A DNA stretch of 35,763 nucleotides. Origin: a virus. A model generated the notes under the pieces. The model did not search any database. It was not told the DNA's origin and saw only the letters and a list, made by a program, of their open reading frames with translations. Shown here piece by piece: positions 17,836-35,625 of this stretch (within the stretch, counting starts at the first letter, position 1; each line of letters opens with the position of its first letter). Both the position numbers and the translations under genes were made by a program. The DNA is taken from UHGV virus genome UHGV-0260253, one strand, 5' to 3'.

Positions 17836-17924
17836 TATCCGTCCTTCGGTGATGTAGCTGCTTCTGTTGGGTTCATAGTTGAAATCCTGTTACGCCATAG
17901 CAATGTATCTGCCATCGTAATGGC

Positions 17925-17951
17925 AATAAAAAAGCCCCGCGATTGCGGGGC
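17925..17951 (-). terminator. Rho-independent terminator after moron gene
   Basis: GCCCCGC-AATC-GCGGGGC hairpin followed by TTTTTTATT on the minus strand. Confidence 0.55.
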
Positions 17952-17969
17952 TGATGGTTATATAAAATA

Positions 17970-18371
17970 TTAGCCAATTAAGTCGTCAATTTTTTTCTGA
18001 ATATAACCATCCAGCAAACGCCTTGAAACGTCAACTAATGTTCCAATGCTTGCATCTTTAAAGCCGGTCTTGAGAGAATTCCAAACCTCTTTATTCCTGA
18101 GAGCTTCAAGGAAGTCATGACCGCTTGAAGTTAAGCGTAACGGTATAACGAACCATGATCCTCCATCAGCAGCCTCAGAGAAACCAAACCCATACTTGCC
18201 GTCTGTTCTAGCAATTAGTTGACGATCAGCCAATAAACGCATATGGAATAAAAATTCATCGGTGCTGTAGTCATACCCAGCCAGCTGCAGCTGCTTTATA
18301 TCAGTATGCGGCTCTTCAGACGCCTCGAAAGCGTCCAAAAGACCTTTCAAATACTCGTGATCTATTTTCAT
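17970..18371 (-). CDS. Hypothetical moron protein (133 aa)
   Basis: AT-rich ORF with AAGGGA SD 7 nt upstream; lies between lysis cassette and HNH/terminase, followed by a terminator. No family assigned with confidence. Confidence 0.5.
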   Translation of the reverse strand: MKIDHEYLKGLLDAFEASEEPHTDIKQLQLAGYDYSTDEFLFHMRLLADRQLIARTDGKYGFGFSEAADGGSWFVIPLRLTSSGHDFLEALRNKEVWNSLKTGFKDASIGTLVDVSRRLLDGYIQKKIDDLIG

Positions 18372-18445
18372 AACATTCCCTTTTATGAATGAGGGAATAA
18401 TTTAACATTAAACTAGGCACTTGATGAATACTTGGCGTAATGCCT

Positions 18446-18640
18446 CTAGTGGTCGAGTTGCAATACACCGTGCTTCAGTAACTCTAAATAAGCGATGAGC
18501 CAGGCATAAACGGGGATAAACTCACAATCATCTTCGAATTCTGGGATGATTCCGGTAGCGATGGTGTATTGAGGCTGGCTATCTTCCTTCGCGAAGGATG
18601 CAAGGTCTTCAAACTGCTTAGCTGTAAGAACCACTGTCAT
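18446..18640 (-). CDS. Hypothetical small acidic protein (64 aa)
   Basis: AT-rich ORF; SD spacing poor (GAGG 1 nt before ATG), so protein-coding status is uncertain. Confidence 0.3.
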   Translation of the reverse strand: MTVVLTAKQFEDLASFAKEDSQPQYTIATGIIPEFEDDCEFIPVYAWLIAYLELLKHGVLQLDH

Positions 18641-18652
18641 ACCTCTGTCGTT

Positions 18653-18674
18653 AAAAAACCTCGCTATTGCGAGG
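18653..18674 (-). terminator. Rho-independent terminator at end of lysis cassette
   Basis: CCTCGC-AATA-GCGAGG hairpin followed by TTTTTT on the minus strand; overlaps Rz1 stop. Confidence 0.5.
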
Positions 18675-18921
18675 TTCGCGATTGCTCAATCGTTCGGATG
18701 TCCGCTTTATCTCTGTTACACTGCCCCAGCGCCAACAACAAGCTGACATTCAAATCCAAACTGCCGCCATAGGTCAGCGGCTCAGGAATAGCTGGTTGCA
18801 GTGTTTCAGTGGTCAGATTCGCCGGTAATGGCACCGCTGGAACTGGCACGTAAACTGTCCGCGTACTTCCGCAACCGGTCAGCAGCGGCAGCAGGCACAG
18901 CACGTGAAGCACAATCATCAT
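18664..18921 (-). CDS. Rz1: Rz1-like outer-membrane spanin (lipoprotein), embedded in Rz in +1 frame
   Basis: Internal start MMIVLHVLCLLPLLTGC within ORF 18664..19173; lipobox LLTGC, Pro-rich mature region. Confidence 0.7.
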   Translation of the reverse strand: MMIVLHVLCLLPLLTGCGSTRTVYVPVPAVPLPANLTTETLQPAIPEPLTYGGSLDLNVSLLLALGQCNRDKADIRTIEQSRTSQ

Positions 18922-19198
18922 CCGCAACAGCCATTTTGATATCTTCCTGGGTTCTCTGTGACTCCAGTGTGCTCTGCTGTTTTGCATGCTGGTTAGCCTC
19001 CAGTACTGTATTGACGATTTGCAGTGATTGCAGGACGTTATTGGTAATGGCAGTTGCCGATTTGGCATTTTGTACAGCCTCATCAGCACGTTTCTTTTCG
19101 TGCTGATATTTGCTGTAGTAGTAGTTGGCTGACCAGATGAAAGAACTGACGACAGTAAAAAGGAAAGCAGCAATAACCAGCTTATAGCTTAACTTCAT
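18806..19198 (-). CDS. Rz: Rz-like inner-membrane spanin
   Basis: 130 aa, N-terminal TM helix then coiled-coil periplasmic domain; 17-nt overlap with endolysin. Confidence 0.8.
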   Translation of the reverse strand: MKLSYKLVIAAFLFTVVSSFIWSANYYYSKYQHEKKRADEAVQNAKSATAITNNVLQSLQIVNTVLEANQHAKQQSTLESQRTQEDIKMAVADDDCASRAVPAAAADRLRKYADSLRASSSGAITGESDH

Positions 19199-19658
19199 TT
19201 ACCACCCCACCAGCCTCTTTAAATCGGGCAATCAGGTCACCGATTTTATGTTCATACTGACCGTAACCTGCACCAGGTAACGACGCCCAGATATTGCTGC
19301 AACGGTCGATTGCCTGACGAATACTGCCGCGGTCAATCATCGGTAAAGCACCACGCTCTTTAATCTGCTGCAGAGCTACAGCGTCCTGGCTTTCTGGAGA
19401 AAAATCTTTCAGGCCAAGCTGTTTACGGTAAGCATCCCACCAGCGTGAAAGAAGCTGGTAACGTCCGGCGGCTGTTGATTTGAGTTTGGGGTTTAGCGTG
19501 ACAAGTTTGCGAGGGTGATCGGAGTAATCAGTGAACAGTTCGCCACCAACAATAACATCATAACCGTGGTTACGTGTCGGTTGTCGCCCGTTATCCGTTC
19601 CTTCTGACCATGCCACCATATCCAGGAAAGCTTTACGCTGGGAATTTAGTGCCTGCAT
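19182..19658 (-). CDS. Endolysin, lambda R-like lytic transglycosylase
   Basis: 158 aa; AFLDMVAWSEGTDNGRQPTRNHGYDVIVGGELFTDYSDHPRKLVTLNPKLKST... closely matches lambda R as recalled. Strong AAGGAG SD. Confidence 0.9.
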   Translation of the reverse strand: MQALNSQRKAFLDMVAWSEGTDNGRQPTRNHGYDVIVGGELFTDYSDHPRKLVTLNPKLKSTAAGRYQLLSRWWDAYRKQLGLKDFSPESQDAVALQQIKERGALPMIDRGSIRQAIDRCSNIWASLPGAGYGQYEHKIGDLIARFKEAGGVVNEVKL

Positions 19659-19661
19659 AAA

Positions 19662-19997
19662 TTACTCCTTCGAGCTACCAAATTTGTTACCGATTACTCG
19701 CATTGCAGCCCCACGAATAGCATCGACACCGATCAGCCCCACGCCACCACCAATGGCAACAGAAAGCGATTTAGGCCATCCGACATATTCAAGAGCGGAT
19801 GCAAAGGTCAGCGTCAGAGCGCCACATAGCAAAATCTCGAGCGTTTTTCGCTTCCAGCCACCACCACCGCCAAAATAGGCGATGCGCAAACCAGCCATAA
19901 CGATCGACATAATCACTGCACCCAGCGGTGTGTCTCCACGCCACCAGCTCTGAAACAACTCCAGCCAGTCCGGCCAGGTATTTGGGTTATGAGGCAT
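19662..19997 (-). CDS. Holin
   Basis: Start moved to internal ATG at 19995-19997 (GAGGTGAGAG SD); the longer ORF would overlap the MTase. Hydrophobic segments IVMAGLRIAYFGGGGG and LLCGALTLTFASAL, charged C-terminus. Confidence 0.7.
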   Translation of the reverse strand: MPHNPNTWPDWLELFQSWWRGDTPLGAVIMSIVMAGLRIAYFGGGGGWKRKTLEILLCGALTLTFASALEYVGWPKSLSVAIGGGVGLIGVDAIRGAAMRVIGNKFGSSKE

Positions 19998-20073
19998 TTC
20001 GTCATCTCTCACCTCGCGATATTTGCGGGTGCTGTGTTGGAAATAAAAAGGCCACGCAACGTGGCCACCAGAA

Positions 20074-21126
20074 TTATTTCCCCACCAGTTCACTTACCTC
20101 TTTCACCGTCTGATTAAACCGCTCTGACTCAAGTTCAACACCTAACGCCCGACGCCCCAGCGCCATTGCTGCTTTTATTGTGGAACCGGATCCCATAAAG
20201 AAATCAGCAACCAGATCGCCTGGTCGACTACTGGCATTGATTATTTGCCGGAGCATATCCGCCGGTTTCTCGCACGGATGTTTACCCGGATAGAACTGAA
20301 CGGGCTTATGCGTCCAGACATCGGTATAAGGCACGGAGACTGATACGGAGAAATAGCGCCGGAGTGATTTAAACTCATCCAGCAATTCAGAATATTTGCG
20401 ATTCAGTGAATCATAAGATGCCACCAGCTGGTGGTGTGGTTGTTCCAGTTGCTGTTCCTGAAACTTCTCTGCCGCTATACGGGAAAACAGTGCCTGTAAC
20501 TTCCGGTAGTCAGCCTCATTCGGCAACTGCCACTGACTGGCACCAAACCAGTGGGAAACCATATTTTTCTTACCTGTGGCTTCGGCAATTTGTTTTGCCG
20601 TTATACCCAGTTCGGCACGAGCATTCCTGAAATACGATATCAGCGGTGCCATTATGTGCTGTTTGAGTTCCCTTTCTTTTGCCGCATAGCCGTCACTTTT
20701 GCCACGATATGGCCCATGGTAATGTTCAGCAAACAGAACGCGCTCTGTGGCAGGAAAATATGCACGCAGACTTTCTTTATTACACCCATTCCAACGTCCG
20801 GACGGCTTCGCCCAGATGATATGGTTAAGCACGTTGAAACGTTCACGCATCATGATCTCAATATCAGATGCCAGGCGATGTCCACAGAACAGGTAAAGGC
20901 TTCCGGCAGGTTTCAGCACCCGCCAGAACTGGGCCAGACAGTGATCCAGCCACTTAAGGTAATCTTCGTCCCCTTTCCACTGATTGTCCCAACCGTTGGG
21001 TTTCACCTTGAAGTACGGCGGATCGGTAACAATCAGGTCAATGGAATCATCAGGCAGGGACTGAATAAAATGCAGGCAATCAGCGTTGATTAAATCAACA
21101 CTGTTTATTTTTACAGTATTTTTCAT
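20074..21126 (-). CDS. DNA methyltransferase (N6-adenine/N4-cytosine class, DPPY motif)
   Basis: 350 aa; motif IV LIVTDPPYF near N-terminus and motif I FFMGSGST near C-terminus (beta-class order). Confidence 0.85.
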   Translation of the reverse strand: MKNTVKINSVDLINADCLHFIQSLPDDSIDLIVTDPPYFKVKPNGWDNQWKGDEDYLKWLDHCLAQFWRVLKPAGSLYLFCGHRLASDIEIMMRERFNVLNHIIWAKPSGRWNGCNKESLRAYFPATERVLFAEHYHGPYRGKSDGYAAKERELKQHIMAPLISYFRNARAELGITAKQIAEATGKKNMVSHWFGASQWQLPNEADYRKLQALFSRIAAEKFQEQQLEQPHHQLVASYDSLNRKYSELLDEFKSLRRYFSVSVSVPYTDVWTHKPVQFYPGKHPCEKPADMLRQIINASSRPGDLVADFFMGSGSTIKAAMALGRRALGVELESERFNQTVKEVSELVGK

Positions 21127-21275
21127 GGATCAGTAAGCGTAACTCTGGTAGGCTCACTCTGCTTTTGCGCTAAAGCAGTGGGCCGTGGTTCGCTTGTGAC
21201 CAGTAAGCATGAGCGAATGGCTGGCAGGTGCTACCAACACCCACCAGCCGCCCATTTTCACAAATTAAAAGTCCT

Positions 21276-21470
21276 TCATTGCTGAAGGCGTCTGTAACAG
21301 CCGAACTGGTAATCTGCCAGCCCCGCCATAACCAACTGGGTCAGTATTAACTGACAGCGTTCGCGTGAAAGATATGTGTTTTGTGCAATCTCCCCGACTG
21401 TTGCCGGTTCGATGCTTAATTCATTAAAAACAACTTTCGCCGTTTCTGTCATATCTTGCTGTTTTAGCAT
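21276..21470 (-). CDS. Small hypothetical protein (64 aa), possible winged-helix
   Basis: Start chosen at internal ATG 21468-21470 with AAGGA SD; the longer ORF lacks an SD. Confidence 0.35.
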   Translation of the reverse strand: MLKQQDMTETAKVVFNELSIEPATVGEIAQNTYLSRERCQLILTQLVMAGLADYQFGCYRRLQQ

Positions 21471-21586
21471 GCCTTTTTCCTTCTGGTTAACATGACATAC
21501 CAATAACTCTTGTCTAAAAAGCCAGCAAGATAAAAAGTCAGTATTCACGACCACCAGCGTGTTTACCGAACTGCCAACATCAAGGC

Positions 21587-21612
21587 ACAAAAAAACCCGC
21601 TCAGCGGCGGGT
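21587..21612 (-). terminator. tR'-like terminator downstream of late promoter
   Basis: ACCCGC-CGCTGA-GCGGGT hairpin followed by TTTTTTT on the minus strand. Confidence 0.6.
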
Positions 21613-21659
21613 TCTTAAATCTTATCAACGGTAGACATACAAAGCCCATCGTTGGAAAA

Positions 21660-21688
21660 ATCTTATCCATATTTTTTGAAAAATGCAA
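21660..21688 (-). promoter_or_regulatory. Late promoter pR'-like
   Basis: Minus strand TTGCAT-N17-TAAGAT, 32 nt downstream of the Q stop and about 60 nt upstream of the terminator. Confidence 0.5.
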
Positions 21689-21719
21689 GCATTATGTCGC
21701 CATCTTCGGCGAAAATCAT

Positions 21720-22472
21720 TTATCTCGTCACTTTTCTTAATTGCGCCTCAGCATATGCTTCTTCCTGCCAGCACTTTGTAACCAGTTTATCAATGACATC
21801 TGCATATCCTTTGTACCACTGATAATCTGTCAGGTCTGGTACCAGCTTCTGGACATGATGCCGCGCCAGTGTGGTTGGTAAACGGCTAAACCGGTTTCCA
21901 TTGCAACGCCCACAAATCTTATAAACAGGCGTGCCATGAAGCCGGGTCCTTTTTTCATCCAGGACAATACCTTTACCCTTACACCCTCTGCACGCTGTGC
22001 TGACTTCTCCCTTACCATGACAATGCTGACATAGTTCCTTCACCCACTCTTCCTTGATAACAGATTCCCCGCTTCTGGAGTGTTTCACCACTTCGCGCAA
22101 TACATTATGAAATCCAGTACCAGCACAATGCTCACAGCGAGCCTTACTTGCCGCAGACCTGGAATAATCAGCAAAGGCAAAATTCACAAGGTAAGGGATG
22201 ATCTGTAACCGGGTTTCTTCACTCAATTTATTCAATGTCGGGTTATCCAGTGCCATCGCGTAATTGAGCAGACCTTCAATCGCAAATTGAGGATCCTGAA
22301 CACCAACTTTTGCCAGGAATAAGGCAAACCCAAGCGGTGCTTTCGACTGCACCATCCCCTGCGCAGCCATCACATCCGTAATCGTTAAACCACCTGAGCC
22401 TGTCGCCGGTGCGTCATCGCTCAATTTTGGAGATTTCGGGGAGTAATATTTTGGTAAGGCTTCAAGGTTCAT
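21720..22472 (-). CDS. Late antiterminator Q (QuuD-like)
   Basis: Start at internal ATG 22470-22472 (MNLEALPKYYSPKSPK...); position immediately upstream of pR'/lysis genes. Contains four CxxCxGxG repeats. Confidence 0.75.
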   Translation of the reverse strand: MNLEALPKYYSPKSPKLSDDAPATGSGGLTITDVMAAQGMVQSKAPLGFALFLAKVGVQDPQFAIEGLLNYAMALDNPTLNKLSEETRLQIIPYLVNFAFADYSRSAASKARCEHCAGTGFHNVLREVVKHSRSGESVIKEEWVKELCQHCHGKGEVSTACRGCKGKGIVLDEKRTRLHGTPVYKICGRCNGNRFSRLPTTLARHHVQKLVPDLTDYQWYKGYADVIDKLVTKCWQEEAYAEAQLRKVTR

Positions 22473-22485
22473 GCTCGTTCTCCAC

Positions 22486-23481
22486 TTACGCCAATACGCC
22501 AATTGCCAGCGCACGATCGATAAAACGAAATATCAGCTCCAGCTGAGAGCCATACTTCTCTTCAAATGCCACGGTATCCGCATGCAGCTCGTCGTGATGC
22601 TTTCTGCACAAAGGCAACACAAAGAGGTCATGCGCTTTTGTACCCATTCCACCCTGACCGTGGCCTATCAGGTGGTGGGGATCATCAGCAGGCTTTCCAC
22701 AACATGCACACGGCTGTGTCTTAACCCAGCGCGTGTACTTTTCATTAACCCAGCGGCGGCGTTTTGGGCGTAACATAAAAGACTCCGGCGACTCCGGATC
22801 CACTTTCAGCGCCAGCACCTTTTTCGCTTTATCCTGGATGATGCTGGTGGCAGGAACCGAAGGCACAAGGTCACTTTCCCGGGTGACAGACGGCACAACA
22901 GGTTTCGGTAATCTCAGCGCCTTACGGGCTGCGCTTTCAGGTAAGGCATCCGCCAGGTCATTACGAATCAGCCACCAGCACAGTTCCGGCATTGTCACGG
23001 CATGGTTATCATCAAAACCGAGATCCCGACGGACTACAGACAACACCCAGCGGGCACAGTTATCCGTTGCCATTGATTCCAGCCGTTCCGTGAACTGATC
23101 GCGCAGCTGGTTATCGCAGTGCCAGCACAGACGGATTGCGCCCGGAGCGTGTCGCATTGTGGTCATGTTCTCGCTGTGCCAGTCGGAATGAGGCCACTGG
23201 CAGCCTTTTTCACGAAGTAACCAGCTTTCAAGACATTCCACGCCACCAGCACGACGGATCACTGCCTCATTGCGGAACACGGCCCGAACGGCAGGATCAT
23301 CCGCCAGCGGTTGTGATGCCGCCGGAACGGCACCACTGGCGAAAGATGAATAACGTTCCGGCTCAGGCTCCAGCAGGACACGCCCCTGCATAAACAGGGG
23401 CATCAGCTCTGAACCTGGCCTGAACAATACGATCCCCATACGCGGGGCAATTTCAGGAGTCAGTAGTGCTCTCACGGTCAC
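22486..23481 (-). CDS. DUF968-like protein with C-terminal Ref/HNH-like nuclease motif
   Basis: 331 aa; C-terminus CACCGKPADDPHHLIGHGQGGMGTKAHDLFVLPLCRKHHDELH. Confidence 0.55.
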   Translation of the reverse strand: MTVRALLTPEIAPRMGIVLFRPGSELMPLFMQGRVLLEPEPERYSSFASGAVPAASQPLADDPAVRAVFRNEAVIRRAGGVECLESWLLREKGCQWPHSDWHSENMTTMRHAPGAIRLCWHCDNQLRDQFTERLESMATDNCARWVLSVVRRDLGFDDNHAVTMPELCWWLIRNDLADALPESAARKALRLPKPVVPSVTRESDLVPSVPATSIIQDKAKKVLALKVDPESPESFMLRPKRRRWVNEKYTRWVKTQPCACCGKPADDPHHLIGHGQGGMGTKAHDLFVLPLCRKHHDELHADTVAFEEKYGSQLELIFRFIDRALAIGVLA

Positions 23482-24701: not shown

Positions 24702-25024
24702 ACTTTCAGGCCTCTCTCATGTAACCAGTGAGTTGCACGCAGCCTTGCGTTTTCCTCACCGGCAAGCAGTGCGCGGATAATCCCGACCGCCTCGCTGTCG
24801 TCGTCCTTCACCGCGGTATGAAGCGTTATCCCCCGGGCCACGCCACGCTTTATCGTGATGACGCCTTTTTTCTCCAGTGCGCGAAGATGCTCCACCGCTG
24901 CATTCACTGAACGGTATCCCAGCATGGTTGCCACCTCCTGATTGGTTGGCGGGAAGCCACGTTCTTTCTGATAAGAAATCAGCATATCCAGCACCTGCTG
25001 CTGGCATTGAGTTAACGTCGTCAT
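24698..25024 (-). CDS. LexA N-terminal DNA-binding-domain protein (no peptidase domain)
   Basis: 108 aa; LTQCQQQVLDMLISYQKERGFPPTNQEVATMLGYRSVNAAVEHLRALEKKGVI aligns with the E. coli LexA N-terminal winged helix as recalled. No S24 Ser/Lys motifs. Confidence 0.7.
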   Translation of the reverse strand: MTTLTQCQQQVLDMLISYQKERGFPPTNQEVATMLGYRSVNAAVEHLRALEKKGVITIKRGVARGITLHTAVKDDDSEAVGIIRALLAGEENARLRATHWLHERGLKV

Positions 25025-25674
25025 GCCGCCATCTCCCTGACCAGTTTTTCTGCCTGCTGGCGAACCTGCGCCAGAAAGGCCTCACCACATGCCTCAAGTT
25101 CATCGCGCCCGATGTAGCTGATTGCCGGTCCCTTCCAGGTCTTGTCGAAAACAGCAATAGCACCAGCGAAGAAAGCGCCTGTCGGCACCTGCTTCTCATC
25201 CTTCGGGATAAACCAGGCAGGCAGTTCAAAACCAATACGCCCGCGAATAAAAGCAATATGATCTGCATCTTCCGGCCACCACACTTCGCTGGTGGCAGCT
25301 TTGATCAGGAAAACATAGCGCCCGCCTTTATCACGCATGGCACTGGCATGCTTCATGATGTAACGCATGCCGGTGATGTATTGCCCCTCATGCTGACTGG
25401 CGCGGCTGTATGGGGGATTACCAAAGGCAGCACCTTTAAGCTCCGCAAGGCGTTCTGACCAGTCATGCGCCAGCGCGTTGTCTTCCGCCGTGTAATACGC
25501 AGCACATTTGGCGTTATCACCGTCAGTGAACAGATCCAGAACAAACGGGCCAAACAGGGTGTTAATTCCCCAGAAAATGTTGTCCGGCGTGCGCCACTGA
25601 TCGCCCACTTCCTTCAGTTCATGGGCTGGTTTGTTCCGCAGTTCCACCAGCGCCTGGCAATATTTATTACTCAT
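25021..25674 (-). CDS. Phage Dam-like DNA N6-adenine methyltransferase
   Basis: Start at ATG 25672-25674 (MSNKYCQ...), TAATG-coupled to upstream gene; NPPY motif (AFGNPPYS). Confidence 0.8.
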   Translation of the reverse strand: MSNKYCQALVELRNKPAHELKEVGDQWRTPDNIFWGINTLFGPFVLDLFTDGDNAKCAAYYTAEDNALAHDWSERLAELKGAAFGNPPYSRASQHEGQYITGMRYIMKHASAMRDKGGRYVFLIKAATSEVWWPEDADHIAFIRGRIGFELPAWFIPKDEKQVPTGAFFAGAIAVFDKTWKGPAISYIGRDELEACGEAFLAQVRQQAEKLVREMAA

Positions 25675-26168
25675 TAAGCCCCCACGTAATTCCCTGAGAG
25701 ATACCACTCTTCACCTGATGCAGCCCGCTTACTGCTTTTCCGTAAACACCGTTCACGACGCGCCAGAAAATTGTTTCGTTCTGGCTGGGAGTGGCTTTCA
25801 CGGAATGCCGCCATCCACACCGTTGCAGCACGACGGTATAAGCCCCTGGACTCCAGTTCTTCCGCCTGGCGGGTCAGGCACAAAATCACCCGCGGGTCGT
25901 TAGTGCCGACATAGAAATTGCGCACAGGTCTGGTTTCACGAACTGGTTGTGGTTCCGGATCCTGCGCTCTCTCAGTCAGGCGCGGGAAATGTCTGCGTGT
26001 ATCTCCTTCACAACGGTGAGCCACACGCCCACTCTGACGTAACTTGCTTGCTGACTGCAGAACGCGCTGCCGTGAGTAACCAGCAAAAGCATCCGCAATG
26101 TCTCCGGAAGTACACCCCGGATGGGCTTCAATGAATTTCTGAACTTCATTCAAAAGACTCATAATCAC
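25674..26168 (-). CDS. Hypothetical protein with PerC-like C-terminal region
   Basis: 164 aa; ESRGLYRRAATVWMAAF resembles the PerC-family core as recalled; ATGA overlap with O-like gene. Confidence 0.4.
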   Translation of the reverse strand: MIMSLLNEVQKFIEAHPGCTSGDIADAFAGYSRQRVLQSASKLRQSGRVAHRCEGDTRRHFPRLTERAQDPEPQPVRETRPVRNFYVGTNDPRVILCLTRQAEELESRGLYRRAATVWMAAFRESHSQPERNNFLARRERCLRKSSKRAASGEEWYLSGNYVGA

Positions 26169-33631: not shown

Positions 33632-34198
33632 TTAACACACTTCAGAGCCACTTAACTGGAAAGTTATAGGAGATATTTTACCTCTAAACCTATAAGGTTT
33701 GGATAGTAGTAACTTTTCCATAACCCCATTATTAATTACTTTTTTTGCATACTGTTCATCAGTAAGTTCTTTCCCTAAAAAAGAGAATCTATTACATACA
33801 ATCCATATATTAAAATCAGTAATTTTCACATCTTCTTTTAAAAAACTATCAGAAAAACGCTCTTGCATGAAATCGTCTACTGCTGTCTTATACTTGCATC
33901 GTATATTTTCTTCATCTAATCGGGAAACTTTTGCAACATTCTTCAACTCAATTATGTAAAGTGCAAAACGATTATCCCCTCGCTTAATAACTAAAATATT
34001 ATCTGGTGAAGGAGGTGTAATAGGCAACCGAAGCGAATTATAATATGAATCCACAGAAAGATTGATTATTTTTTGGCAATCTAGTTTTCCGTTATCCTGA
34101 TAAAAATCAGCATCCAATTTGACAAACACATTATTTTCTTCGACTTCATCACGAAGTAAAGCAGTTAACTCAGGAGTTGCAAGAATTTTTTCGATCAT
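33632..34198 (-). CDS. Hypothetical protein with PD-(D/E)xK-like motif (candidate nuclease effector)
   Basis: 188 aa, AT-rich, no histidines; PD...(17 aa)...ELK pattern (SPDNILVIKRGDNRFALYIIELK); ATGA-coupled to the upstream ATPase gene. Confidence 0.45.
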   Translation of the reverse strand: MIEKILATPELTALLRDEVEENNVFVKLDADFYQDNGKLDCQKIINLSVDSYYNSLRLPITPPSPDNILVIKRGDNRFALYIIELKNVAKVSRLDEENIRCKYKTAVDDFMQERFSDSFLKEDVKITDFNIWIVCNRFSFLGKELTDEQYAKKVINNGVMEKLLLSKPYRFRGKISPITFQLSGSEVC

Positions 34199-35625
34199 TC
34201 TTTGCCATCCTCGTCTTCCATTTCGTCATTTATAGTTTGAAAGATATCCATCTTTTCATCAAATAACTCATTCGTAGCTGGGCCAAAGTTATTATCCTCA
34301 ATCCCTAACTCATCAATTTCTAGCGGTAAAGCAACACTTCCTGTTCCTGTCTTTTTAAATACTACTGATGATACATTATTTTTATGGATACCTGTCATGC
34401 AGTTCTCAGCAGTGTTCTTAATCACAAGATTATTAACCTTGTTGAATATAAAATTACTATGAGATGTCACAATAAGTTTAACATTTGCATCTATTAATTT
34501 TGCAAATATCTCTGTTAATTTTATTTGAATTTCCGGATGTAAATGAGCTTCTGGTTCTTCAATCATAATTAATGGTTTAGGTTCTGGACGTTTGAATTCC
34601 CTAGCCCCGCTTCCGATGCGTCTCATACCCGATTCGTCAGCTTTAGTAAGCACGTATCTTAAATATGATACAATAGGTGCCAACTCTGAAACCATCGAAG
34701 ATGTTGATGACAACTCTAATCTAAGATTTGTATTATTAGGATAAAAAAGAAGCTGTTTTGTCTGTGGATTAAATTCCACTCTACCATCTAATATTTTATC
34801 TTCTATTTCTTTGGCAAGGATATTTAATTTCTTATCTTCATAGTTCCGTTTAACAACTCTAATATCAGACAACTTAATGAAGTAATCACTAACAGGCTCA
34901 GATATACTTGGCAATTCAATTTTTTTTGATAAGAAAGATCTATTCTTAGATAACTCTGCAATTATTTGACCAAAAGCACTCAGAGCTTGATACAAACCCG
35001 AACGACTTGCTGGCAAATAATGGACACTCTTAAGAGTCGGTGTTAAAATTGTATTAACCATAACCATGAATGTTCTTTGAACAAAGAAGTGATTGTATTC
35101 GCCAATCAATCTGTTTATAGCTTCTTCATAATTATCGTTATTTTCCCTATAATAAATACTGGATGAATTTGCGCCATGGTGAAAAGTTCTATTTCTTTTT
35201 GATTTTTTTATATAAAATTGTTGAGCGTGCTTGATATCACTTACACATAATTTGTTATTTTCGAGTTTTATGTCTACAGATAAATCATTACCAACCAGAC
35301 TGATCTTAGCTGGTTCATTATTAAACTGATTTTGTAGATTGTTAAGTGATACAAATGTATTTGAAAAAGAATTAGTTAACTCTGCTAGTAAATAACTCGC
35401 AAACATATTTTTTATGTCTTCATTCACTAACATTGAAACATTCATATCTGTTTCATCACTTTCTATAAAACCTGCAAATTCTTTCCTCCTTATATCTGAA
35501 GTCATTTCAATATGATCGAAATCAAGATAATAATCGAAGGAATTGATTATATATGAGCGACGTTGTTTTAGTTGCAGTAAAGATTTAACAATTAAATAAA
35601 TTGCGGTTATTGCATATGATTTACC
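34195..35625 (-). pseudogene. ABC-type (OLD/AAA_15-21-like) ATPase, N-terminus disrupted by IS1
   Basis: Frame open upstream of the annotated ATG to the IS1 junction; native residues GKSYAITAIYL (Walker A remnant) abut IS1. Downstream motifs: VHYLPASRS, Walker B LIMIEEPEAHLHP, H-loop LIVTSHS. Confidence 0.65.

What the first reader, a model, noticed from the sequence alone, without database searches (positions are those of the whole stretch)
20074..21126. DNA methyltransferase placed in the late operon just upstream of the holin
A 350-aa DPPY-motif methyltransferase is the main cargo of the late transcript between pR'/tR' and the lysis genes, with no cognate restriction gene. Late expression would methylate progeny genomes before packaging, which fits an anti-restriction role or epigenetic marking. 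This slot carries Shiga toxin or other morons in related lambdoid phages.
Basis: partly seen in the sequence, partly recalled or inferred. Interest (0 to 1): 0.5.

Follow-up and report, generated by a model that had tools for sequence, protein, structure and literature searches.

The report
Phage late-gene promiscuous DNA adenine methylase
The gene is real and is a close relative (82% identical) of M.EcoGII, an enzyme shown to methylate adenines in any sequence, sitting where an SfV-like prophage should switch it on only late in lytic growth; the enzyme family is already known, but the conserved folded RNA leader just upstream of it appears undescribed.

Summary
Observation confirmed. Window 20074-21126 (- strand) is an intact 350-aa beta-class N6-adenine methyltransferase (DPPY 35-38, FMGSG 310-314). 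It lies between antiterminator Q/tR' and the holin of an SfV-like prophage and equals SfV orf48. It is 82% identical, without gaps, to M.EcoGII, the characterised sequence-non-specific adenine methyltransferase. It is 88-89% identical to a reconstructed ancestor whose methylation activity was measured. The nearest site-specific relative of M.EcoGII is only 27% identical to it. No restriction gene is in the window.

The slot is conserved across Enterobacterales: four Q families upstream, six holin families downstream. In Stx2c phages the gene shares the late transcript with stx2. 43% of complete E. coli genomes hold a homologue.

Best explanation (inferred, untested): Q-dependent late expression methylates progeny DNA at adenines in any context. 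This would give broad anti-restriction cover, while tR' keeps a harmful enzyme silent in the lysogen.

New here: a ~140-nt leader with covariation-supported structure directly abuts the start codon. It is exclusive to this gene family and has no Rfam match. A 64-aa winged-helix-like ORF usually precedes it. The layout resembles Mu com-mom.

The parts
21720..22514 (-). Late-gene antiterminator Q. This is the longest ORF; the SfV annotation starts it at 22472.
   Evidence: Pfam PF03589 Antiterm, E=1.3e-53. SfV gene Q.
21578..21719 (-). Q-to-tR' interval, presumed to hold pR' and the Q-loading site. It ends in the intrinsic terminator tR' (hairpin CCCGCCGCUGAGCGGG plus U7, about 21590-21613).
   Evidence: Sequence read. 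SfV annotates a terminator here. The terminator parts of Rfam leader models align to it. The exact pR' hexamers were not identified: the consensus scan found none on this strand.
21276..21470 (-). orf47: a 64-aa protein of unknown function, probably a winged helix. It is the usual upstream partner of the methyltransferase.
   Evidence: phrog_331, unknown function, E=5.9e-35. Weak DprA_WH and TrmB hits. A profile gives only weak wHTH matches in the PDB. A homologue was detected by tblastn 120-200 nt upstream of the methyltransferase in 59 of the GTDB loci.
21273..21288 (-). Weak terminator-like hairpin overlapping the orf47 stop codon. An equivalent hairpin precedes the leader in related loci.
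21127..21267 (-). Conserved structured 5' leader RNA of the methyltransferase.
- P0: 21254-21250 with 21183-21179.
- P1: 12-bp hairpin, 21249-21238 with 21230-21219.
- P2: 21217-21209 with 21197-21189.
- P3: 21178-21172 with 21165-21159.
- Alternative extended P3: 21184-21178 with 21157-21151. It excludes P0.
   Evidence: Spacer mean column identity is 85%, above the 79% nucleotide identity of the methyltransferase genes. 86-88% of cells are paired, against 29-43% in slid controls. 13-18 of 33 pairs carry compensatory changes, against 2-7 in controls. The covariance model hits once per locus, always abutting the ATG, with E<=5e-28. 118 of 121 IMG/VR pattern matches have the methyltransferase ATG within about 50 nt (117) or 188 nt (1) downstream. 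No Rfam match. RNA fold z=-3.7.
20074..21126 (-). Beta-class N6-adenine DNA methyltransferase. It is an ortholog of M.EcoGII and equals SfV orf48.
20035..20066 (-). Strong intrinsic terminator (GGCCACG-UUG-CGUGGCC plus U-run) between the methyltransferase and the holin.
   Evidence: Annotated in SfV.
18806..19997 (-). Lysis cassette: holin S (19662-19997), endolysin R (19182-19658), Rz (18806-19198, with Rz1 embedded).
   Evidence: Phage_holin_3_1, E=5.9e-27, and TIGR01594. SfV annotation.

Best explanation

In the lysogen, transcription from pR' would stop at tR', so this harmful enzyme would not be made. After induction, Q would make RNA polymerase terminator-resistant. The orf47-leader-methyltransferase module would then be transcribed together with the lysis and morphogenesis genes. 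The enzyme would methylate replicating and concatemeric phage DNA, and incidentally the doomed host's DNA and RNA, before packaging.

Progeny genomes would then enter the next host pre-methylated at a large fraction of adenines. This would blunt any restriction or self/non-self system that is blocked by m6A in its site, that is, many Type I, II and III systems and, by inference, BREX-type systems.

The dedicated structured leader, usually with the small winged-helix protein, most likely tunes translation or mRNA fate. This would be functionally analogous to com-mom of phage Mu.

Shown here: identity of the family, orphan status, gene order, terminators, conservation of slot and leader, purifying selection.

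Inferred: non-specific activity of this particular ortholog, late-only expression, methylation of virion DNA, anti-restriction benefit, regulatory role of leader and orf47.
For: Family identity
- 284/348 identical to M.EcoGII with no gaps. The comparator was verified against the published M.EcoGII sequence (PMC11551740 Suppl. Table S1).
- 88-89% identical to the reconstructed ancestor Anc291 and 70% to SUPREM/Anc284. The paper measured methylation activity for both and reports the variants as largely non-sequence-specific (PMC11551740).
- The closest site-specific relative of M.EcoGII, M.PflMI, is only 27% identical to it (PMC11551740 section 19).

Published biochemistry of M.EcoGII (PMC5778455)
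- It methylates more than 85% of adenines in vivo and up to 99% in vitro.
- This blocks many restriction enzymes.
- Cells expressing it from a plasmid grow more slowly.
- It is silent in the lysogen.

Selection
- dN/dS is about 0.09 against the M.EcoGII gene.
- All 74 complete homologues from distinct species are intact, with DPPY and FxGxG.

Slot
- Q lies upstream in 50 of 64 loci, in four unrelated Q families.
- Downstream neighbours include 44 holins of six families, 31 endolysins and 10 Tad2-like anti-defence genes.
- The window shows the same order, with terminators on both sides.
- No restriction enzyme is in the window.

Rationale and precedent
- Lambda and P22 virions are under-methylated by host Dam (PMC8022706).
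- Promiscuous adenine methyltransferases occupy the late mom slot of Mu-like prophages (PMC3299994).
Against: - No experiment on this ortholog, on its timing, or on SfV-type virion DNA was found in the searchable literature.
- The start codon has no recognisable Shine-Dalgarno sequence, and a hairpin and a folded leader precede it. Output may therefore be low.
- An enzyme made late may only partly methylate DNA that is replicating fast.
- From my own knowledge, not tested here: heavily m6A-modified DNA can be attacked by methylation-dependent (Type IV, Mrr-like) enzymes, so the benefit depends on the host.
- From memory, unverified: restriction maps of SfV virion DNA were published, which would argue against near-complete methylation.
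- pR' itself was not located by the consensus scan.
Confidence: 0.7

Rival explanations
1. It is a site-specific orphan methyltransferase that marks a defined motif. The marking would serve epigenetic regulation or packaging, or protect against one particular restriction system.
For: Most PF01555 enzymes are site-specific. PADLOC labels it a generic Type II methyltransferase. The TRD differs from M.EcoGII at 24% of positions.
Against: 82% identity to a proven non-specific enzyme. More distant reconstructed relatives (70-89% identical to this protein) are reported as largely non-sequence-specific, and the nearest site-specific relative of M.EcoGII is 27% identical to it (PMC11551740). The prophage uses cos-type packaging with an HK97-like HNH and terminase, so there is no hint of methylation-dependent packaging (PMC3851460).
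Confidence: 0.07
2. The main target is not progeny DNA. The late burst of non-specific methylation would act on host DNA or on RNA. Possible purposes are to shut down the host, to alter translation or RNA decay, to interfere with co-resident prophages or superinfecting phages, or to feed back on its own leader RNA.
For: M.EcoGII methylates ssDNA, RNA and RNA:DNA hybrids, and slows cell growth (PMC5778455). The gene carries a dedicated structured RNA leader with conserved unpaired adenines.
Against: RNA is a much poorer substrate than DNA (PMC11551740 Table S3). The cell lyses soon after late genes turn on. Neighbouring Tad2-like anti-defence genes in 10 loci point to counter-defence. This reading is not exclusive of the main explanation.
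Confidence: 0.12
3. It is a silent passenger gene of a mosaic prophage with no current function.
For: M.EcoGI and M.EcoGII show no activity in their native lysogen (PMC5778455). Stx2a phages and one IMG/VR contig have lost most of the gene.
Against: dN/dS is about 0.09. All 74 complete homologues are intact, with catalytic motifs. Position is conserved amid mosaic flanks. Homologues occur in 2359 of 5426 complete E. coli genomes. The leader shows compensatory evolution.
Confidence: 0.03

Closest known systems
M.EcoGII / M.EcoGI (E. coli O104:H4 C227-11 prophages; Murray et al. 2018, PMC5778455)
   Same: Same family and architecture: N-terminal DPPY, central TRD, C-terminal FxGxG, about 350 aa. 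82% identity. Prophage-borne. Same slot downstream of Q, with the same small upstream ORF and the same leader.
   Different: 18% sequence divergence, 24% in the TRD. The flanks differ: here a PF03589-type Q and a lambda-type holin directly downstream; there a short Q, two inserted opposite-strand genes, tRNAs, nanS-p and a class II holin. Activity of this ortholog is untested.
Hia5 / Hin1523 / Nma1821 promiscuous adenine methyltransferases of Mu-like prophages (Drozdz et al. 2012, PMC3299994)
   Same: Phage-borne, near-non-specific m6A writers in a late slot. Each is preceded by a small regulatory gene. They are not detectably active in the lysogen. A broad anti-restriction role is proposed.
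   Different: Different class: alpha, Dam-related, with motif order reversed, so they are not homologous in architecture. Their partner is the zinc-finger protein Com. Their specificity is AB/BA rather than any A.
Phage Mu com-mom operon
   Same: A late, host-harmful adenine-modifying anti-restriction function. It is preceded by a ~60-aa regulator gene and controlled through its mRNA leader (summarised in PMC3299994).
   Different: Mom makes N6-(1-acetamido)-adenine and is not a methyltransferase. orf47 lacks the four-cysteine zinc site of Com. The leader here is a larger multi-helix RNA and persists in loci that lack orf47.
Site-specific phage Dam-type orphan methyltransferases (for example the PF05869 gene of this same prophage at 25021-25707)
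   Same: Orphan phage adenine methyltransferases.
   Different: Different Pfam family, and located in the early (nin-like) region. The GATC specificity of Dam enzymes is from my own knowledge; the specificity of the PF05869 gene in this window was not determined.

Membership tests
M.EcoGII family (beta-class non-specific N6-adenine methyltransferases) | Beta-class motif order: catalytic DPPY near the N-terminus, central TRD, AdoMet-binding FxGxG near the C-terminus | tested here: met
   DPPY 35-38 and FMGSG 310-314. PF01555 spans residues 29-341 with a long insert.
M.EcoGII family (beta-class non-specific N6-adenine methyltransferases) | Full-length similarity to M.EcoGII far above that of the nearest site-specific enzyme (M.PflMI, 27%) | tested here: met
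   284/348 identical with no gaps. Comparator verified as M.EcoGII. 88-89% to Anc291 and 70% to SUPREM.
M.EcoGII family (beta-class non-specific N6-adenine methyltransferases) | [quoted passage not shown] | tested here: inconclusive
   76% sequence identity over 160-237. No structure was modelled here, and the fold assignment itself comes from an AlphaFold model in PMC11551740.
M.EcoGII family (beta-class non-specific N6-adenine methyltransferases) | Methylates adenine in any sequence context (DNA, ssDNA, RNA) | not testable with these tools
   Inferred from homology only.
M.EcoGII family (beta-class non-specific N6-adenine methyltransferases) | Prophage-encoded and not expressed in the lysogen | tested here: inconclusive
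   Prophage location is shown. Silence is inferred from tR' upstream and from the absence of a consensus promoter on the sense strand. It was not measured.
Orphan (solitary) methyltransferase | No cognate restriction endonuclease nearby | tested here: met
   40 window ORFs were scanned against PADLOC and Pfam. Only generic HNH hits appeared, from the terminase-associated HNH, plus a DUF968/HNH protein. The SfV annotation agrees.
Lambdoid late-operon moron | On the late strand, downstream of Q and tR', upstream of the holin, bracketed by terminators | tested here: met
   The same slot is seen in 50 of 64 loci for Q and with 44 holins downstream.
Mu com-mom type control module | Small four-cysteine zinc-finger translational activator (Com) encoded just upstream | tested here: not met
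   orf47 homologues have no CxxC...CxxC pattern and only one nearly invariant Cys. Profile matches are to winged-helix domains. This is a resemblance of layout only.
Any described RNA family (Rfam 15) for the leader | Match to a covariance model | tested here: not met
   No hit with E<=1 on the leader in the window or in 7 diverse loci.

The most novel reading that the evidence does not exclude
The ~140-nt leader abutting the methyltransferase start would be a previously undescribed, family-specific cis-regulatory RNA. It has a three-way junction (P0/P1/P2) that competes with an extended P3 helix. Alone or with the 64-aa winged-helix protein orf47, it would gate translation of a toxic, non-specific methyltransferase. 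That would make it a lambdoid counterpart of Mu com-mom. It could possibly sense the enzyme itself, its m6A mark on the leader, or SAM/SAH.
Probability: 0.4. Interest if true: 0.55.

Novelty: already known. Interest (0 to 1): 0.33.

Why it matters
M.EcoGII is a widely used reagent for chromatin footprinting, DamID-like mapping and RNA methylation. Even so, I found no study of its natural role.

This window shows a close ortholog in its native setting:
- It is a late-operon cargo under Q antitermination.
- Homologues are found in 43% of complete E. coli genomes.
- In Stx2c phages it is co-transcribed with Shiga toxin.

That turns the 'broad anti-restriction' idea into a simple, testable experiment on an inducible phage.

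The practical lesson is that standard motif-calling methylome pipelines would miss its activity.

If functional, the conserved leader and the small partner protein would explain how cells tolerate carrying such a gene. They could also be useful for tight control of the enzyme in biotechnology.

Tried and rejected
1. Cognate restriction enzyme. PADLOC and Pfam scans of 40 window ORFs found none.
2. Solved structure of a close relative. The best PDB matches are distant beta-class enzymes (8urk/9c3u, M.RsrI and others) that match only the two catalytic half-domains. No structure of this family appears to exist.
3. Known RNA family for the leader. There is none. The only hits near it are terminator pieces of Leu/Trp leader models on tR'.
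4. Leader as a small coding ORF. One-nucleotide indels shift the frame between lineages, and the predicted peptides are not conserved. In about half the sequences a uORF ends in an ATGA overlap with the methyltransferase start, but not in the window (reading). Rejected as a conserved peptide.
5. Leader coupled to orf47. Rejected as obligatory, because the leader is intact in loci lacking orf47.
6. Sequestration of the start codon. The MFE fold leaves AUG unpaired. A possible pairing of the -20 to -3 region with the 3' half of P2 shows no covariation. Inconclusive.
7. Locating pR' by consensus scan. No site was found on the sense strand. The scan is too strict to be informative.
8. The SfV genome paper (tried as PMC134923) is not held. 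Literature searches for an in-phage study of M.EcoGII-type genes found nothing.
9. The covariance model did not detect the shortened leader of Xenorhabdus and Photorhabdus, which keeps only P1.
10. Structure prediction and the large protein-database searches were not run. 82% identity to a characterised enzyme made them unnecessary.

Full report
**What is there**

Window 20074-21126 (- strand) is an intact 350-aa ORF with an ATG start. It matches Pfam PF01555 (N6_N4_Mtase) at E=1.6e-42. DPPY lies at residues 35-38 and FMGSG at 310-314. This is the beta-class order: catalytic motif first, AdoMet motif last, with a long central insert.

The surrounding 3 kb is 99.6% identical to Shigella flexneri phage SfV, where this gene is orf48, annotated 'DNA methyltransferase'. 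Over its whole length the window is an SfV-like mosaic prophage. It is about 92-98% identical to SfV in shared blocks, with several replaced segments and the cos ends joined.

**Gene order on the - strand**

The order is as follows:
- a DUF968/HNH protein;
- antiterminator Q (21720-22514, PF03589);
- a ~140-nt interval ending in the intrinsic terminator tR' (21578-21613);
- orf47 (21276-21470, 64 aa);
- a weak hairpin;
- a ~140-nt spacer;
- the methyltransferase;
- a strong intrinsic terminator (hairpin 20050-20066 plus U-run);
- holin S (19662-19997, lambda S family), then R and Rz.

The one addition is that the methyltransferase is not the only thing in the interval.

**No partner nuclease**

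Forty window ORFs were scanned against PADLOC and Pfam.
- The only nuclease-like proteins are two HNH-type proteins. One is next to the terminase, as in HK97-like phages, and gives weak generic matches. The other is fused to DUF968.
- A second methyltransferase, of the Dam family PF05869, lies in the early region at 25021-25707.
- The methyltransferase under study is therefore an orphan.

**Which methyltransferase**

A homologue in E. coli O104:H4 (WP_000935520.1, locus L002) was checked against the published M.EcoGII sequence in Supplementary Table S1 of PMC11551740. It matches at 345 of 350 aligned positions, and the mismatches are typical of text extraction from a PDF.

Identities of the window protein:
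- 284/348 with M.EcoGII, with no gaps;
- 88-89% with the reconstructed ancestor Anc291 and 70% with SUPREM/Anc284;
- by domain against M.EcoGII: 90% in the N-terminal catalytic part, 76% in the target-recognition domain (160-237) and 79% in the C-terminal part.

Published properties of M.EcoGII (PMC5778455):
- It methylates adenine in any context: more than 85% of adenines in vivo and up to 99% in vitro.
- It acts on ssDNA and RNA as well.
- It blocks many restriction enzymes.
- Cells expressing it from a plasmid grow more slowly.
- It shows no activity in its native lysogen.

The ancestors were active, and the paper reports them as largely non-sequence-specific. The nearest enzyme with proven site specificity, M.PflMI, is only 27% identical to M.EcoGII (PMC11551740).

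The gene is under strong purifying selection. dN/dS against the M.EcoGII gene is about 0.09. All 74 complete homologues taken from different species are intact, at 343-365 aa, with both motifs. I therefore file it as a member of the M.EcoGII family. Non-specific activity is inferred, not shown.

**How general is the placement**

Homologues occur in 2359 of 5426 complete E. coli genomes. They also occur in at least 109 stretches of species-representative genomes across Enterobacteriaceae, Erwiniaceae, Morganellaceae, Xenorhabdus and Photorhabdus.
- Upstream: in 64 loci the nearest sizeable ORF is a Q antiterminator in 50. These belong to four unrelated Pfam families: PF06530 (22), DUF1133 (14), PF03589 (9) and PF06323 (5).
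- Downstream: the first two ORFs include 44 holins of six Pfam families and 31 endolysins. In ten loci there is a Tad2-like (Thoeris anti-defence) gene.
- The module therefore keeps its place between Q and lysis while everything around it is swapped.

In a Stx2c-converting phage the order is Q, an orf47-like ORF, the leader, the methyltransferase, two tRNAs, stx2A and stx2B, then nanS-p. Shiga toxin and the methyltransferase therefore share the slot rather than alternate in it. In Stx2a phages such as P13374, only the last 35 codons of the methyltransferase survive between Q and stx2A, and the leader is gone.

**Most likely mechanism**

By the standard logic of lambdoid late control, pR' transcripts stop at tR' unless Q has modified the polymerase. 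The methyltransferase lies behind tR' and has no consensus promoter of its own on that strand (a weak test). It should therefore be made only late in lytic growth. This fits the silence of M.EcoGI and M.EcoGII in lysogens and the harm done by forced expression (PMC5778455).

A late, context-independent adenine methylase would modify replicating phage DNA before packaging. Progeny would then be resistant to m6A-sensitive restriction in the next host. Host Dam is known to under-methylate lambda and P22 virions (PMC8022706), which explains why a phage would carry its own enzyme. Promiscuous adenine methyltransferases sitting in the late mom slot of Mu-like prophages are a direct precedent (PMC3299994).

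All of this is inference from gene order and homology. I found no experiment on the phage role of this family.

The right read-out is motif-independent m6A.

**Something extra: a dedicated folded leader**

The ~150-nt spacer between orf47 and the methyltransferase is more conserved than the genes on either side. Its mean column identity is 85%. The methyltransferase genes share about 79% at nucleotide level, and orf47 as little as 54% at protein level.

Structure:
- An alignment of 46 diverse copies supports four helices: P0, a 12-bp hairpin P1, P2 and P3.
- 86% of cells are paired, against 29-43% when partners are slid.
- 13 pairs carry changes on both sides, against 3-7 in the slid controls.
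- On the covariance-model alignment the values are 88%, and 18 of 33 pairs against 2-7. That alignment is fitted to the structure, so it leans towards it.
- Frequent G-U pairs indicate the sense-strand RNA.
- An alternative extension of P3 (GGCCCAC with GUGAGCC, carrying a conserved C-A mismatch) is also supported and excludes P0. The RNA may therefore have two states.

Specificity:
- The model hits exactly once per locus, always ending at the methyltransferase ATG, with E<=5e-28 in 727 kb.
- 118 of these have the methyltransferase start downstream: 117 at 50-52 nt and one at 188 nt.
- Two matches run off the contig.
- One is an internal deletion that fuses the leader to codon ~283.

Other observations:
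- No Rfam family matches, and RefSeq annotates nothing in this spacer.
- The start codon has no recognisable Shine-Dalgarno sequence, and a GATC immediately 5' of the ATG is almost invariant.
- The leader is not a conserved peptide, because frame-shifting indels occur between lineages.
- It persists where orf47 is missing.
- Xenorhabdus and Photorhabdus have a shorter version that keeps only P1.

**The small partner**

orf47 (phrog_331, unknown function) has a nearly invariant RCQLILTQL helix. It gives only weak matches to winged-helix domains. tblastn detected a homologue 120-200 nt upstream of the methyltransferase in 59 of the GTDB loci.

The layout is a small regulator-like ORF, then a folded leader, then a toxic late adenine modifier. 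This mirrors Mu com-mom and com-hia5 (PMC3299994). However, orf47 is not a Com homologue, because it lacks the four-cysteine site. A regulatory role is a hypothesis.

**Verdict**

The finding is real and correctly placed. Its identity is already known: it is SfV orf48, a member of the M.EcoGII family. Murray et al. noted that very similar enzymes occur in known enterobacterial phages. The anti-restriction reading is the best-supported one but remains untested. The part that looks new is the family-specific structured leader, together with its winged-helix-like partner.

Noticed in passing
window 25021-25707 (-): A second orphan adenine methyltransferase of the Dam family (PF05869, E=1.1e-45; PADLOC MTase_II 1e-158) lies in the early nin-like region. 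SfV calls it 'dam'; RefSeq mislabels it a PAPS reductase. The prophage thus carries one early and one late methyltransferase.
   Followed up: partly
window 33632-35505 (-): A low-GC (~33%) two-gene cassette lies just beyond the integrase, where SfV carries gtrABV. It consists of a 436-aa AAA_15/AAA_21 ATPase with PADLOC hits to NsnB, PD-T4-4_A, AriA and GajA-like models, plus a 188-aa protein with no family match. It looks like a prophage-borne defence moron.
   Followed up: partly
window 17836-18701: An insertion relative to SfV lies between Rz and the terminase-associated HNH gene. It includes a DUF2513 protein (17970-18371, phrog_585, unknown function).
   Followed up: no
related loci, for example L045/L046 5123-5506 and others: In ten species-level loci, one of the first two ORFs after the methyltransferase is a Tad2-like (PF11195, Thoeris anti-defence) gene. 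This suggests the Q-to-lysis slot collects counter-defence cargo.
   Followed up: no
L088 (phage P13374) 3501-3605; L107 2146-2443: Decay products of the module. Stx2a phages keep only the last 35 codons of the methyltransferase between Q and stx2A, with no leader. One IMG/VR contig has the leader fused by deletion to codon ~283.
   Followed up: yes
window 21127-21135 (-) and alignment A4 columns 135-142: A GATC (Dam site) immediately 5' of the methyltransferase ATG (UGAUCYAUG) is almost invariant across 46 diverse copies. This is unexplained. It is reminiscent of the Dam-dependent control of Mu mom.
   Followed up: no
L015, L026, L031, L050 (records titled Vagococcus, Geobacteraceae MAG, Chryseobacterium, Collinsella): These records carry ~80% identical enterobacterial-type copies of the module, with typical lambdoid flanks. 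This probably reflects contamination or mis-binning in those assemblies rather than true host range.
   Followed up: no
window 21127-21267 (-), helices P0 versus extended P3: Two mutually exclusive pairings of GGCCCAC are both compatible with the alignment. One is with the upstream UGGGC; the other is with the downstream GUGAGCC and carries a conserved C-A mismatch. In L028 both partners co-vary. This may be a two-state RNA switch.
   Followed up: partly
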